Of a DNA stretch of 64,000 nucleotides, positions 772 to 63,113 are shown piece after piece. The position numbers and the translations under genes were made by a program. The notes under the pieces are model-generated. The model was not told the DNA's origin, did no database searches, and saw only the letters and a list, made by a program, of their open reading frames with translations. The first letter of the stretch is position 1. Each line of letters starts with the position of its first letter. The stretch comes from Octopus vulgaris (lineage: Eukaryota): positions 31,992,001 through 32,056,000 of the forward strand of contig OX597817.1 of assembly GCA_951406725.2 (NCBI GenBank), in the 5' to 3' direction.

Positions 772-1350
772 TAATATAAAATGAGATAGGGGTTGAAAAT
801 TCAACCCACCATGGGATAATATACATCCAATATACTGCTAGATAGGTACCCAACAAAAATTAATACATAGATGTTAGAAATTGTCAAGCAATCAGTTCAT
901 CTATTGTATTAAATGGGTAAGGGTAATAATATTACCGTAAATTAATACTACAAAATTAGAGAATGGAGAAACATACTTAAATCAATAAAGCATCAACTAT
1001 CTGATGATACTAATCCATACTTTAATACACCATTACATAGGAGTAAAGGCAATATATAAAATGAAATGAGATATACAGTAATAGTAAAAGTAAAAGTAAA
1101 AGTAAAAGATAAAGAGATATAAGTAAAAATACAAATACAATATGCAAATAAATTTGCATATTGTATTTGTAATTTTTACTTATATCTCTTTATCTTTTAC
1201 TTTTACTTTTACTTTACTATTACTGTATATCTCATTTCATTTTATATATTGCCTTTACTCCTATGTATATTAAAGTATGGATTGAGTATCATCGATAGTT
1301 GATGCTTTATTGATTTAAGTATGTTTCTCCATTCTCTAATTTTGTAGTAT
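772..1350. mobile_element. Fold-back element between (TA)n tracts: ~205-bp inverted arms (945-1149 / 1152-1350) plus ~170-bp extension on the left arm only
   Basis: atactacaaaattagagaatgg...tatgcaaat | aa | atttgcata...ccattctctaattttgtagtat are reverse complements with a few indels. (TA)n at ~708-771 and from 1348. Same architecture as the hammerhead-bearing fold-backs, but no hammerhead found here. Confidence 0.8.
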
Positions 1351-3259
1351 ATATATATATATATATATATATATATATATATATATATATATATACATAC
1401 ATATATATATATCTACATATATATATATGTGTGTGTGTGTATATATATACATGTGTGTATATATATATACATATATTAATATATGCATTATATACTTATA
1501 TATATATATATTCTATATGCATACATGCATATAGATATATATATATATACATACTTACATATATCAGTTTCTGCTACTCTCTTCCACTTTATCTCTATAC
1601 CTCCTGTCTCTGTCACGTAAGAACATGTATAGGCACATATATTTCATAATTTACAGAGGTATGTACAGACATTTATATATATATATATATATATATATAT
1701 ATAAGCATACATACATGTATATATATTAGATATGTGTGTGTGTGTGCGGATGTGTGAACTTATAATGCGATATTAAGGAGGTTAAGAAAATGAGCAATAT
1801 TCGTTGAATAAACGTTAACTGGGCGGAGTAGTATAATATAAGCAATTTGAACGTCGTTAGTATTTGGTTAGAGTTTACTATGTTATCATTCATCTCCCTC
1901 GTGTAAAACCTTACACCCATCTACGGCTCTTCAGCTGTTTTGCTAACCCCCATCGATTGATTGTTGCGTATACACAAAGCTCCAATTTCAGTATGATTAG
2001 TTAGATTCAACACCGCATGAAGCTCATAGTTCGTTTTCTCAAACAATTTAACGAAAATAAATATATTTCCAGTAGATTGGTCTCAGTCCGATCCATATTG
2101 GATCGGATCAGTGCTGGACAATGGGAGGTCAATATTGTAAGTTCTCTTTAGAATAAAGATAAATACTGAGGTTTAAGGTTTGTGGTCTGTGACGACTGCT
2201 AGTCTAAAAACAACCAGGAATATGGATATCATTATTATAAGCTATCCTTATCACTGATTTCCTTGGCAAGTGTTCGTACAAACACTCATATATATATACA
2301 CACACACAAGCACATACATAAACAAATGTATACATACACGCATATATACATACATACAGACAGACAGACATATATGTGTATGTGTGCGTGTGTGTTTGTG
2401 TGTGTGTAAATACACAAAGAAAGAGAGAATTCTCAGTTTAAGTTCAAATTCATTTGAGTACTACAACGTGTTTTCTATACTGAGCATATCTAGCTCTCAC
2501 ATATTGTGTGTATGTGTGTGTGTTTCTGTGTCTGTGTCTATCTGTCTGTTTGTCTGTATAAATTGATGGAATAAGATACACATTCAAAGAATCGTGTGGC
2601 TATCACAGAATACTCCTCTTATTTCTTCCACAGTGAAATAATTATAAATACAAGAAGAAAGCAATGAAACAGGTGTAATCCTAAGGATGTTAAGTGGTTA
2701 AATAAATATATTCACCTCTCATTCCTCCTGACTCTTTATGGTATATATATGTATATATATATATATATATATATATATACACACACACACATATATATAT
2801 ATATATATATATATACATACACACACATACACAACACACATTCACACACACACATATATATGCGTATGTTGGTTTATGTCGAACGAACGAGAGGAATACT
2901 CAATATAGGTTGTAGGGGATATGGTGTTTTTTTTATTAAAAATGAAACTGAGTTTGCGTCATGATTTGAGTTTCAGTTTCAGTAAAAACTCTGTGTGTGC
3001 GCATGTGTGTGTGTGTGTGTGTGTGTGTGTTACAGGTTCTCAGCGAAAGAGAAAGTTAGTTCTAAATATATAGCGTAGAGTATATAACGGACCTAAAGTC
3101 GGGGAGTTCTGCTATTTTACAGCGTCGTGCATTAAGCCGTATAGAGATAAATATTTTGATCCCGTGATACTTTGTAACATTTGTTACAGAACACCATCTG
3201 CCAGCCCTGTAGTTTATCAATCACATTGATTACTGACCCCTTTCGCTGTGAAGTTTGGC

Positions 3260-3580
3260 ACTCACGTACCTAATAGCTTCGGGTACTCTGTTATATTTAT
3301 TGAGATAAGAGACACTTGGGACAAAAACCGAACAACGTTTACGTTGCTGTTAAGGTCTGATTTGAAGTGGCTCTTGAGTTAGACTATAGCATGGCGGCTG
3401 GTTTGCAGGCTGGTTGATAGCATGGGAACTGACTTGGTGGCACCAGAGCCTCAGTTGTGGAAGAGCCAAAGGACCTCGAAAGTTAAATACTGCAACCAAT
3501 GAACCCTCAATCAAGTGAAGACCGCACTGATAAATAAGTCATGCACGTGTCTGCACGTGAATATTGTTACATGACGAGGA
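3260..3580 (-). promoter_or_regulatory. Candidate Pol II promoter / non-coding first exon
   Basis: Non-repetitive island with two CACGTG E-boxes (3544-3549, 3554-3559), CCAAT (3496-3500), TATTTAA on minus (3489-3483) and overlapping donor sites ag|gtacgt / ac|gtgagt (3269-3260). Motif evidence only. Confidence 0.3.
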
Positions 3581-60890: not shown

Positions 60891-62543
60891 GATCAGATGT
60901 TCCGATAGCAGCATGGATTATCTTTCCAGTATGAAGGTTGGATTACAGACGGGAAGCAAGTGGCTTTCGAGAGTCGGTATCTACACATTCTGTGTATATT
61001 GGTATTAGTGGTGGAGAAGGTGGCGGAGAGGGGGATGAGGAGGGTGAGGAGGAAGAGATAGAGGAGGTAGGAAAAAGTTGTCACATGGCCGGCGGGATTT
61101 GAAAACCACATCTGCTCTAAACCGTATAGTTATGCTCTATGTAAGTGTGTATATGTGTATGTATGCGTATATGTATAAAATAACATTATGTTTTTATATT
61201 TAAATAGAATATTGAATGTGACTGTGTGTGTATGTCAAAACAATTTATTTAAACAAATAATTTGTTTGATCAAACACCTACTCACAACAGGAGCCTACAT
61301 CGCATATATATATATATATATATATATATATATATATATATATATATATATATATATATATATATATATATATATATATATATGTATGTGTATCGCATAT
61401 ATACATATATATATAAACATGCAATGCACAATACTGATGCTACAAGGTGGTCTAAATATCTCATACAGTTTTCTATACAGACAAATCTCTTCAAAGCTTT
61501 CTGATAATTTTATTATTATAAGCATATGTTCCCTATAAACAGAGAAAGAAAGGATCAACAATATATTTGCAGAGTATTTTTAGATACATTTAGTTAATAA
61601 TGTAATATACTTTTATTCAATTTGTCCAAGACTTCCATTCTCAAAGGATAGTTTGAATGAAGTCAAAACTGATTCCGACAGTGAAAGAAATATATGTGTC
61701 TGAAATTATATCTTTAATCAGTAAGGAACGTAGATGTCGTTGTCGTCTTTTGACGCAGGAAGACATTAGAAAAAAGATGGCGTATATCACACACTTAACT
61801 GAATTCAAGAAAGGTCGTCTACTTATCCTGGAGATGAATGAAATCACATGGTAACGGTGATTATGTTTTAAAAAGAGAGAAATAAATAAATAAAAACAAT
61901 TAAGAAAAAGAATGAAATGGTCTTGGCATTTCGAAAGATTTTTGAGCATGATTGAAGCTTTCATCAACGAGCAAAGGAAAATCAACACCTAATCGTAGTA
62001 TTTTAACACTTAATTATTTTCTTACACACTTGACTTGTTCCTATAGGTTGTGTTAGTCTCCCTTTTCTTGTCCGTAAACTTAATCCCGGCGATTAGGTTT
62101 TGAGCTGTTGTTACTGTTTGAAAAACATGAAGGCTACGTTTAATGTCAATTAGTGTCAACAATAACGTATACGAGACAACACAATCCAACGCATAAGCGT
62201 CAATCTGATTCCTAAACATGTTAAGTCTAGCGAACAGCCTAAAACACAACACAATCCGTGTTGGGAATGAAATTGGTGGGGAGGTAGATCCGCTCTGGAG
62301 CGTGTGTGCGTGTGTGATTACATGCATTGATACAAGCTCGCAAATATTAACAGACATACAAAATATACACACACACACATATAATACATATATATATGTG
62401 TATACAAATGTATAAGTATATGTATATATATATATATATGTATACATACAAACATATATATATGTATGTATATATATATATATATATATATATATATATA
62501 TATACATACATACATATATATATATATACATATATATATATAT

Positions 62544-63113
62544 ATGATGCCAAGGATTTAGCGGTACATATGTTTCGGGCCTTTATTAGACGGTTTTATA
62601 ACAATGCATAATGTGTGTCTAAAGCCTTCTTCAGCCGCGTACAATTACTACTTCAAGGACATGTATTACATTATGAGTTTTACGTTGGGGATGCAAATCC
62701 TCATAGTCGCGTACGACAGAGTGGGGCACCAACACAAAATTTTGTAATTTTGTAATTTTTACTACCTTTTGCACCCACCACCCTCCCTCTTTGTGATCAC
62801 TAACTCACTAAAGGTTCAACCCCCCAACCCCTTCCCTCTCTATCTCAACATCCAAACTTCCTCATTTTACATCGAGTGAAAGACGGGATGGACGCTTCGA
62901 TTTTGTGTTGGTGCCCCACTCTGTCGTACGCGACTATGAGGATTTGCATCCCCAACGTAAAACTCATAATGTAATACATGTCTTTGAAGTAGTAATTGTA
63001 CGCGGCTGAAGAAGGCTATAGACACACATTATGCATTGTTATAAAACCGTCTAATAAAGGCCCGAAACATATGTACCGCTAAATCCTTGGCATCATGTTT
63101 TTATTTTGATTAA
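62544..63113. mobile_element. Fold-back hammerhead element: 197-bp arms (62544-62740 / 62900-63096), 159-bp spacer, one hammerhead per arm
   Basis: Arms differ at ~2 positions. Hammerheads at 63002-63079 (+) and 62561-62638 (-). The left arm abuts (TA)n; only the right arm has the tail gtttttattttgattaat. Confidence 0.9.

What the first reader, a model, noticed from the sequence alone, without database searches (positions are those of the whole stretch)
772..63113. Window-wide system: small hammerhead-ribozyme retroelements inserted as asymmetric fold-backs at AT-rich/(TA)n sites
Seen: five insertions of unrelated sequence (772-1350, 13517-13975, 42031-42629, 51375-51745, 62544-63113) share one architecture. 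Two inverted copies of the element's 3' region point outward; one copy keeps a terminal tail of ~20-170 bp and the other stops short of it. Four carry a type-I hammerhead (CUGANGA...GAAA, palindromic stem III), and four touch (TA)n. About 10 hammerhead motifs and several PLE GIY-YIG/RT relics occur in 64 kb. Established: Penelope-like elements carry minimal hammerheads in their pseudo-LTRs, often show inverted 5' pLTRs, and some target microsatellites. Inference: this is a set of non-coding, retrozyme-like passengers, integrated by priming cDNA twice on one RNA (once at the tail, once internally), which leaves long hairpins.
Basis: partly seen in the sequence, partly recalled or inferred. Interest (0 to 1): 0.9.

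Follow-up and report, generated by a model that had tools for sequence, protein, structure and literature searches.

The report
Lopsided hairpin insertions of Penelope retrotransposons
Five mirror-image insertions are stumps of Penelope-type jumping genes (four) and of one short ribozyme repeat; their two arms almost always stop at two different fixed points, likely because the RNA is copied twice from two start sites in one insertion, a known layout, though one family has a tRNA-like head that likely lets it also spread as a short parasite.

Summary
The five asymmetric fold-backs are real and repeat genome-wide. Each family has two fixed 3' ends, short (S) and long (L, +33 to +173 nt). Of 95 resolved head-to-head copies, 78 pair S with L, 1 is S/S and 0 L/L; an L-picked F4 sample adds 13 S/L and 1 L/L. 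Target duplications enclose whole F4 fold-backs. This is the known Penelope-like element (PLE) layout: inverted pLTR plus one-sided tail. F1, F3 and F5 are 5'-truncated ends of coding Hydra-type PLEs. F4 is the end of a Penelope/Poseidon-type PLE. Only F2 is a 352-nt tandem retrozyme. Two reader ends are wrong (F3, F5). Non-overlapping arms and shared variants favour two primings at two internal sites on one template lineage. New relative to my searches: the near-strict S/L pairing, a tRNA-like head inside F4's pLTR where most short copies begin, and a Tx1-type LINE inserting site-specifically into the F2 retrozyme. The scan noted the same layout earlier in a shark genome (e1-7858806). Raw-read confirmation was inconclusive.

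The parts
775..1153 (-). F1 long (L) arm: 3' end of a Hydra-type PLE pLTR with 173-nt tail, ending in (TA)n; truncated just downstream of the family hammerhead
1152..1350 (+). F1 short (S) arm, ending at the family's fixed S site in (TA)n (393 exact S-end matches genome-wide)
13516..13763 (-). F2 long arm of a 352-nt tandem hammerhead retrozyme family, 45-48-nt tail, in (TA)n
13773..13978 (+). F2 short arm; hammerhead core and stems II/III at 13773-13805 (5' strand of stem I lost at the junction); fixed S end (145 exact matches)
42034..42198 (-). F3 short arm, ending at the family S site beside (TA)n
42228..42712 (+). F3 long arm (pLTR of a decayed Hydra-type PLE) with hammerhead 42285-42357, an internal deletion near 42630 and the tail to about 42712
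51361..51374 (.). left copy of the 14-nt target-site duplication of F4
51375..51497 (-). F4 long arm (tail, 51378-51421), a short direct piece (51452-51476) and a fold-back of the head (51480-51497) at the junction
51500..51745 (+). F4 short arm: tRNA-like head (about 51500-51575, A and B boxes), (AAT)n tract, minimal hammerhead 51660-51695, S end; 3' end/pLTR of a Penelope/Poseidon-type PLE
51746..51759 (.). right copy of the F4 target-site duplication
62544..62740 (-). F5 tail-less arm with hammerhead (62634-62565), stopping about 20 nt before the family S site, in (TA)n
62741..63186 (+). F5 long arm with hammerhead 63006-63075 and tail to the family L end, then (TA)n; 3' end of a Hydra-type PLE with about 2.2 kb of 3' UTR
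50555..50805 (+). single-armed F5 copy ending at S, hammerhead at 50697
44872..44900 (+). minimal hammerhead of another repeat family
   Evidence: the same motif type in L289 and L296
11020..11154 (-). weak PLE GIY-YIG C-terminal relic
   Evidence: E 0.004
56803..56958 (-). weak PLE GIY-YIG C-terminal relic
   Evidence: E 3e-4

Best explanation
These are single insertions of Penelope-like element (PLE) ends and of one PLE-type retrozyme, each family having two fixed 3' end-points, and they are likely built by two primings: the PLE endonuclease would nick both strands of an AT-rich target, and each nick would prime cDNA at a different fixed internal site of the same template. Shown: two fixed ends per family; near-strict S-with-L pairing; target duplications of 9-14 nt round whole F4 fold-backs; coding PLE sequence upstream in F1, F3, F4 and F5; shared variants between arms; arms that do not overlap. 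Inferred: staggered nicking by a PLE RT-endonuclease dimer. One subunit starts at S and the other at L on an uncleaved RNA, with the trailing enzyme displacing the first cDNA. Both cDNAs stop early, and their 3' ends are joined head-to-head by microhomology, often after a short snap-back at a local hairpin. If only one priming succeeds, a single-armed copy ending at S or L results. The hammerhead lies upstream of both ends and does not make them. F2 likely borrows the PLE enzymes as a non-coding retrozyme; F4 short copies likely come from Pol III transcripts of a tRNA-like head inside the pLTR.
For: Pairing: 78 S/L, 1 S/S, 0 L/L and 16 with one end at neither site among 95 resolved of 103 distinct structures. 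Samples picked in genome order by one end agree. F2 S-picked: 17 of 30 rows have an L partner, 1 a partial tail, 1 a 20-nt L arm, 0 S/S. F1 S-picked: 12 of 30 L, 2 more already past S at the locus edge, 0 S/S. F2 L-picked: 8 of 14 rows inverted (two of them the same structure), all S, although L ends outnumber S ends about 3:1 per strand (212 vs 74). F4 L-picked: 13 S, 1 L, 3 unresolved, 13 single-armed of 30. Single event: target duplications of 11-14 nt in 7 of 13 such S/L copies, against 0.7% of mismatched flank pairs reaching 10 nt. Two primings: arms that do not overlap (L211, L178, L194, L195, L011), and the S arm reaches further upstream in some copies and the L arm in others; a snap-back copy of one cDNA gives neither. 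One template lineage: F2 arms share variants at 0.0122 per nt within a locus against 0.0015 between loci; F1 arms differ at 0.24% within against 1.47% between. Junction hairpins: a head fold-back piece in F4 and a recurrent F1 junction at a palindrome. In vitro support: a PLE protein cuts and extends both strands and starts at two internal sites that define the tail; hammerhead cleavage is not needed (PMC11167929).
Against: Shared variants can also come from gene conversion between inverted arms, or from two RNAs of one source locus, so 'one RNA molecule' is not shown. For old F4 copies arm-arm difference (9.4%) equals between-locus difference (9.6%). 16 of 95 structures have an end at neither site, and one S/S (L111) and one L/L (L386) exist. 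In vitro, start sites did not differ between top and bottom strands. F1 and F2 samples were picked by one end, so each sample can test only one kind of symmetric pair. Most local inverted repeats in the arbitrary sample (31 of 36) hold no strict hammerhead. No autonomous partner for F2 turned up in the loci held.
Confidence: 0.72

Rival explanations
1. Two RNAs on one protein dimer: each nicked strand primes on its own RNA, with a strand- or order-specific rule (first nick uses L, second uses S) giving the asymmetry.
For: Gives overlapping arms with no need for strand displacement; a dimer is predicted and both strands are extended in vitro. It fits the S/L pairing and the non-overlapping arms equally well.
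Against: Arms match each other's subfamily variants far more than other loci do. Two RNAs drawn from many active sources should often mismatch, unless one source dominates per cell or conversion homogenised the arms.
Confidence: 0.17
2. Self-priming or snap-back: one cDNA (or an antisense RNA, as proposed in PMC3846280) folds back at a palindrome and copies itself, and the endonuclease trims one end to leave a one-sided tail.
For: Palindromes and short fold-back pieces at junctions; many arms start at almost the same position; it explains shared variants directly; it is the published reading.
Against: It cannot give arms that do not overlap (5 cases), or a tail-less arm that extends further upstream than the tailed arm from which it would be copied (for example L158, L040, L049, L227).
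Confidence: 0.08
3. Assembly or read artefact (fold-back chimeric long reads), or two independent insertions into one (TA)n tract.
For: No contig piece listed bridges the F5 junction. Different families do pile into the same TA tract (L207/L271, L180/L181).
Against: Arms have diverged (88-99%), end at family-wide fixed positions, are enclosed by target duplications, abut without TA between them, and keep the S/L rule across a 5.3-kb later insertion. Four independent runs show depth steps and loose ends at the S (about 63117) and L (63185-63196) ends.
Confidence: 0.03

Closest known systems
EN+ Penelope-like element insertions with inverted pLTR and one-sided tail (Arkhipova et al. 2013, PMC3846280; Craig et al. 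2021, PMC8557442; Schostak et al. 2008, PMC2377424)
   Same: Head-to-head inverted 5'-truncated copy, tail on one end only, palindromes at the junction, 8-10-bp target duplications, partial tandems. L153 shows the full textbook layout: inverted S arm, pLTR, ORF, pLTR with tail.
   Different: Tails here reach 59-173 nt against the 30-40 nt described; pLTR/3' UTR up to 2.6 kb; the S-with-L pairing is counted here and is close to strict.
Hydra clade PLEs (Craig et al. 2021)
   Same: F1 ORF: RW(R) motif, DKT, CxCx5C linker, C-terminal CxxC and CxH, hammerhead in the pLTR, (TA)n targets. F3 and F5 relics show parts of the same set.
   Different: F1 is about 5.6 kb (described Hydra elements are generally under 3 kb), has an N-rich linker, and is split into two overlapping frames at the same place in both long copies examined. 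No tree was built.
Poseidon PLE PAc of Anolis (Frangieh et al. 2024, PMC11167929)
   Same: Two internal reverse-transcription starts define the tail; AT-rich targets; both strands cut and extended; hammerhead not needed for insertion.
   Different: The main text I read does not report that the two sites are used as a pair in one inverted insertion; its sites lie in the ORF start, while F1's lie upstream of the ORF.
Non-LTR retrozymes (Cervera and de la Pena 2020, PMC7229834; Li et al. 2026, bioRxiv 10.64898/2026.07.22.740005)
   Same: F2: 352-nt non-coding monomer with a type I hammerhead, in short tandem arrays.
   Different: Here the arrays show the PLE integration signature (S/L fold-backs at (TA)n), which is direct support for PLE-driven mobility; 'inverted' and 'tail' are not discussed in the text passages returned.
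Schistosoma Sm-alpha SINE-like hammerhead repeats (as reviewed in PMC6765202) and small-RNA-bearing LTR elements Helenus/Ajax/Cassandra (PMC10886601, abstract start only)
   Same: A Pol III-type promoter followed by a hammerhead (Sm-alpha); small-RNA sequence inside a terminal repeat.
   Different: F4's head lies about 30 nt after the stop codon of a PLE ORF, and its short copies integrate with PLE-type S/L ends and inverted arms.
L1 twin priming (recalled, no paper read)
   Same: Two target strands prime on one RNA and give an inverted, microhomology-joined product.
   Different: In L1 the second start is variable and the two pieces barely overlap; here both starts are fixed near the 3' end and the arms usually overlap.

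Membership tests
EN+ Penelope-like elements | RT followed by a C-terminal GIY-YIG endonuclease | tested here: met
   F1: RT and EN frames between two pLTRs in L153 and L235. Pfam gave no hit; the Atlas gave RVT_1/PF26215 and GIY-YIG leads. F4: upstream EN stretch matches 33 proteins up to E 5e-55, 29 of them with PF26215 and 11 with PF00078; Pfam gave no relevant hit on the two short stretches. F3: EN upstream and RT start downstream. F5: EN C-terminus only.
EN+ Penelope-like elements | pLTRs from partial tandems | tested here: met
   F1 2.6-kb direct repeats round the ORF; F3 EN-pLTR-RT start in L129. Not shown for F4 or F5.
EN+ Penelope-like elements | type I hammerhead in the pLTR with palindromic stem III | tested here: met
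   All five families by motif. Rfam gave no hammerhead match in the listed rows; MFE folds support only F2 and F4 weakly.
EN+ Penelope-like elements | inverted 5'-truncated copy with one-sided tail | tested here: met
EN+ Penelope-like elements | RT phylogeny with PLEs and telomerase | not tested
   no named reference set was held; motifs only
Hydra clade | RWK-like motif, DKT, CxCx5C linker, CxxC and CxH, (TA)n targets | tested here: met
   F1 translation read against section 11 of PMC8557442; partial for F3 and F5
Penelope/Poseidon clade | DKG motif and EN without the upstream Zn-finger linker | tested here: inconclusive
   The best homologue P0001 (67% identity) has DKG and no such linker; the N-terminal half of F4's own ORF was not recovered
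non-LTR retrozymes | non-coding 150-400-nt tandem monomers, each with a type I hammerhead | tested here: met
   F2 only
non-LTR retrozymes | no coding sequence upstream in the family | tested here: not met
   F1, F3, F4 and F5 continue into PLE ORFs
non-LTR retrozymes | self-cleavage and circular RNA in vivo | not testable with these tools
   no RNA holder was listed
tRNA-derived SINE (F4 short form) | tRNA-like head with A and B boxes | tested here: inconclusive
   A box in 18 of 30 and B box in 27 of 30 copies (my own patterns); ARAGORN finds 0 of 30 at default and 6-13 of 30 at relaxed thresholds; Rfam tRNA not matched
tRNA-derived SINE (F4 short form) | defined 5' end at the head | tested here: met
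   53 of 67 head-containing pieces start within a 25-nt window at the head; the other 14 scatter up to 640 nt upstream (samples partly selected)
tRNA-derived SINE (F4 short form) | 3' end shared with an autonomous partner | tested here: met
   the whole short form is the 3' end of the coding PLE
tRNA-derived SINE (F4 short form) | transcription by RNA polymerase III | not testable with these tools
   a truncation hot-spot at the hairpin just before the head is not excluded

The most novel reading that the evidence does not exclude
PLE integration obeys a pairing rule: one dimer, one RNA, two fixed internal start sites, one per target strand. A Penelope/Poseidon-type element here has captured a tRNA-derived Pol III promoter inside its pLTR and thereby spawns its own hammerhead-bearing SINE (thousands of copies), a SINE class mobilised by PLEs rather than LINEs. 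A Tx1-type LINE lineage in turn targets the retrozymes just upstream of their hammerhead, which could cut its transcript free.
Probability: 0.4. Interest if true: 0.72.

Novelty: new variant of a known kind. Interest (0 to 1): 0.5.

Why it matters
How PLEs build tandem and inverted repeats is named as open in PMC8557442, and PMC3846280 read the junction palindromes as self-priming. The counts here link the two in vitro start sites (PMC11167929) to the two ends of one insertion, and the non-overlapping arms argue against pure self-priming; a two-barcode assay would test this directly. The same signature on a tandem retrozyme is direct genomic support that animal retrozymes ride PLE enzymes. If F4's short form is a Pol III transcript, PLEs have SINE partners. 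With 24 strict hammerheads and 36 local inverted repeats in 430 kb of arbitrary sequence, such insertions are a large potential source of hairpin RNA in this genome (inference).

Tried and rejected
Rfam scans: only microsatellite-driven miRNA noise in the listed rows, no hammerhead or tRNA match. ARAGORN on the window: 0. Pfam on the F1 frames and on two F4 stretches: nothing relevant. Phage tblastn of the F4 endonuclease: no match, uninformative. Sequencing runs: no RNA holder listed. Contigs of four runs laid on 62560-63380: fragments of 60-99 nt from many family copies, none of the 32 listed pieces bridges the junction, no empty allele; no verdict. MFE folding of hammerheads and of the S-L regions gave no common structure. 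My first idea that the 5.3-kb body between F2 repeats was F2's autonomous PLE was rejected: it is a Tx1/L1-type LINE. My working idea that F4 was a stand-alone SINE without a coding parent was overturned. The terminal-versus-internal monomer test in F2 tandems was too sparse to decide. Tallies were not de-duplicated; one search replaces them for counts, while the F1 and F4 variant rates quoted include a few duplicates. Filters dropped pieces under 20 nt, under 80% identity (90% for F1, 85% for F2) and simple-repeat pieces. No partner for F2 was found among held loci. In-genome look-up of earlier notes: none.
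Full report
Setting. The window is G000:C4:31992001-32056000 in a 2.8-Gb animal assembly of 227 contigs, AT-rich and full of microsatellites. An octopod lineage is my guess from the repeat landscape and rests on no call. 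I call the five insertions F1 (772-1350), F2 (13.5 kb), F3 (42.0 kb), F4 (51.4 kb) and F5 (62.5 kb).

Observation. All five are head-to-head inverted structures of unrelated sequence, with arm identities of 95, 97, 88 and 99% for F1, F2, F3 and F5. Hammerhead cores lie in F2, F3, F4 and twice in F5. A strict type I descriptor finds 2 in the window against 0.07 in shuffles, and a loose scan gives 7 clear cores. Four insertions touch (TA)n; F4 is enclosed by a 14-nt target duplication. Two reader boundaries are wrong: F5's tail runs to about 63186, and in F3 the right arm is the tailed one, ending near 42712. Only two weak endonuclease relics and no PLE RT relic were found in the window.

Two fixed ends per family. 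Copies from across the genome end at one of two positions, S or L, 173 (F1), 48 (F2), about 59 (F3), 33 (F4) and 70 nt (F5) apart. Exact-pattern counts give 393 F1 S ends, 145 F2 S ends, 212 F2 L ends on the + strand and 2,527 F4 L ends, with 0 for the reversed controls. Contigs of four independent runs show depth steps and loose ends at F5's S and L positions, but none of the listed pieces bridges the window junction.

Pairing rule. Among loci L001-L350, 103 distinct head-to-head structures were found; 8 were cut by the locus edge. Of the other 95, 78 are S/L, 1 is S/S, none is L/L, and 16 have one end at neither site (two of the 16 are S/L pairs interrupted by a LINE). Samples taken in genome order by one end behave the same. 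F2 S ends: 17 of 30 rows with an L partner, one partial tail, one 20-nt L arm, 11 single-armed, no S/S. F1 S ends: 12 L, 2 past S at the edge, 8 unresolved, 8 single-armed, no S/S. F2 L ends: 8 of 14 rows inverted (two of them one structure), all S. F4 L ends: 13 S, 1 L, 3 unresolved, 13 single-armed of 30, with 11-14-nt duplications in 7 of the 13 against 0.7% in mismatched controls. In 430 kb of arbitrary 10-kb stretches, all three F4 fold-backs with both ends were S/L. In the same sample 6 of 15 hammerhead clusters lay in local inverted repeats covering 7.9% of the sequence (p 7e-4), though 31 of 36 such repeats held no strict hammerhead.

What the families are. F1 is the 2.6-kb pLTR of a coding element: L153 has an inverted S arm, pLTR, RT frame (534 aa), endonuclease frame (444 aa) and pLTR with tail, and L235 has the same two frames. 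Its motifs match the Hydra clade as described in PMC8557442. F3 lies between an endonuclease relic and an RT start in L129. F5 lies about 2 kb downstream of an endonuclease C-terminus in L333, L349 and L350. F4 continues upstream into RT-thumb and GIY-YIG coding sequence, whose 33 homologues mostly carry PF26215 and often RVT_1; the best one has the DKG motif. About 30 nt after the stop codon comes a tRNA-like segment (A box 18 of 30, B box 27 of 30; ARAGORN only at relaxed thresholds; no Rfam match), then (AAT)n, a minimal hammerhead, S and L. Of 67 head-containing pieces, 53 start at the head, as expected for a Pol III transcript, though a truncation hot-spot at the small hairpin there is a live alternative. 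F2 alone is a non-coding 352-nt tandem monomer with a complete hammerhead; a relative with the same S/L layout turned up in the arbitrary sample (L159). No partner for F2 was found in held loci.

Mechanism. Shown: fixed ends, pairing, enclosing duplications, non-overlapping arms in five cases, either arm reaching further upstream, and arms sharing variants (F2 0.0122 against 0.0015 per nt; F1 arm difference 0.24% against 1.47%; for F4 the difference rate is uninformative). Inferred: a PLE dimer nicks both strands, each 3' end primes at a different internal site on one template, both cDNAs stop early and join by microhomology, often after a short snap-back (head fold-back piece in F4; recurrent F1 junction at a palindrome). 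L is not the RNA end, since tandem copies read through it and all hammerhead cut sites lie upstream of S. I put PLE identity near 0.97, two primings near 0.85 and a single RNA molecule near 0.6. Two RNAs with a strand rule, or conversion between arms, are not excluded.

Comparison with print. What I saw: PMC11167929, parts 1-2 of 4, the whole main text; PMC3846280, passages and the Discussion; PMC8557442, passages and section 11; bioRxiv 10.64898/2026.07.22.740005, part 1 of 5 and passages; passages only of PMC13282606, PMC7229834, PMC4209133, PMC2377424, PMC6765202 and PMC6685494; of PMC10886601 the abstract start and reference lines. No supplements were read. The inverted copy with a one-sided tail, junction palindromes, (TA)n targeting, minimal hammerheads, two internal start sites and retrozymes as PLE dependants are all in these texts. 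I did not find the pairing rule, a PLE-mobilised tRNA-headed SINE, or a Tx1 element targeting retrozymes in searches; the library lacks most subscription papers and Repbase. L1 twin priming is recalled. An earlier scan note on a shark genome reached the same architectural reading.

Side finding. A Tx1/L1-type LINE (zinc knuckle, AP endonuclease, RT, zf-RVT) sits in F2 with a 20-nt duplication ending 6 nt before the hammerhead core. Of its 22 best-scoring 3' ends, 19 are followed by F2 at the same base and 1 by the duplication plus a second LINE; the other 2, and ranks 23-30, have other flanks. 13 of its 16 best 5' ends are preceded by the matching F2 base, 11 of 14 more divergent copies have weakly F2-like sequence upstream, and two 5'-truncated copies still lie inside F2. 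That points to its own targeted insertion rather than carriage as cargo.

Verdict. The counted pairing rule, the tRNA-like head inside a pLTR and the retrozyme-targeting LINE lift it above ordinary. Interest 0.5; new variant of a known kind.

Noticed in passing
L281:2080-6962, L282:3065-8395, L283:1240-6539; L301-L322; L351-L380: Tx1/L1-type LINE inserted site-specifically into the F2 retrozyme, just upstream of the hammerhead, with a 20-nt duplication; divergent relatives sit in related retrozymes, and another subfamily (L323-L330) has a different clustered target.
   Followed up: partly
L153:2852-5730 and L235:6216-9094: Both long F1 copies, on different contigs, split RT and endonuclease into two overlapping frames at the same place; a shared lesion or a programmed frameshift.
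   Followed up: no
L069, L081, L082, L085, L227, L065 (F1 reference position about 1657): Recurrent inversion junction at a small palindrome in independent F1 insertions.
   Followed up: partly
L091, L097, L104, L106, L119, L120: A 20-nt fold-back of the F4 head at the junction, in three cases joined to the other arm at the (AAT)n tract, suggesting snap-back then microhomology joining.
   Followed up: partly
L207/L271 (C1) and L180/L181 (C1): Different PLE-type insertions share one (TA)n tract, tail to tail.
   Followed up: no
L159:2098-4765: Another retrozyme (359-nt monomer, 2 inverted plus 5 direct hammerheads) sharing F2's tail region and the S/L layout.
   Followed up: partly
L166:8958-9115, L170:3739-3881, L299:49-211: A small near-perfect palindrome family with (TA)n on one side and a shared extension on the other; probably a further S/L family.
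   Followed up: no
L231:7292-9347, L281:7321-9207, L249, L170: Relics of PLEs of another type (CxxxxCxxC linker, Neptune-like by recall), not linked to F1-F5.
   Followed up: no
L411:3160-6078: An unrelated non-LTR element with RT inserted inside a long F4 fold-back.
   Followed up: no
window 18495-18884 and 21404-21790: About 390-nt inverted termini at 97-98% enclosing 2.5 kb; probably a DNA transposon derivative.
   Followed up: no
window 28420-29013, 38928-39227, 40261-40713: Frames resembling Tc1/mariner transposase relics (by recall of motifs).
   Followed up: no
window 46902-47369: Frame resembling the C-terminus of an R4/Dong-type non-LTR element next to a long (AAT)n tract (by recall).
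   Followed up: no
window 63240-63380: A very high-copy repeat (depth) with a degenerate hammerhead-like motif right of F5.
   Followed up: no
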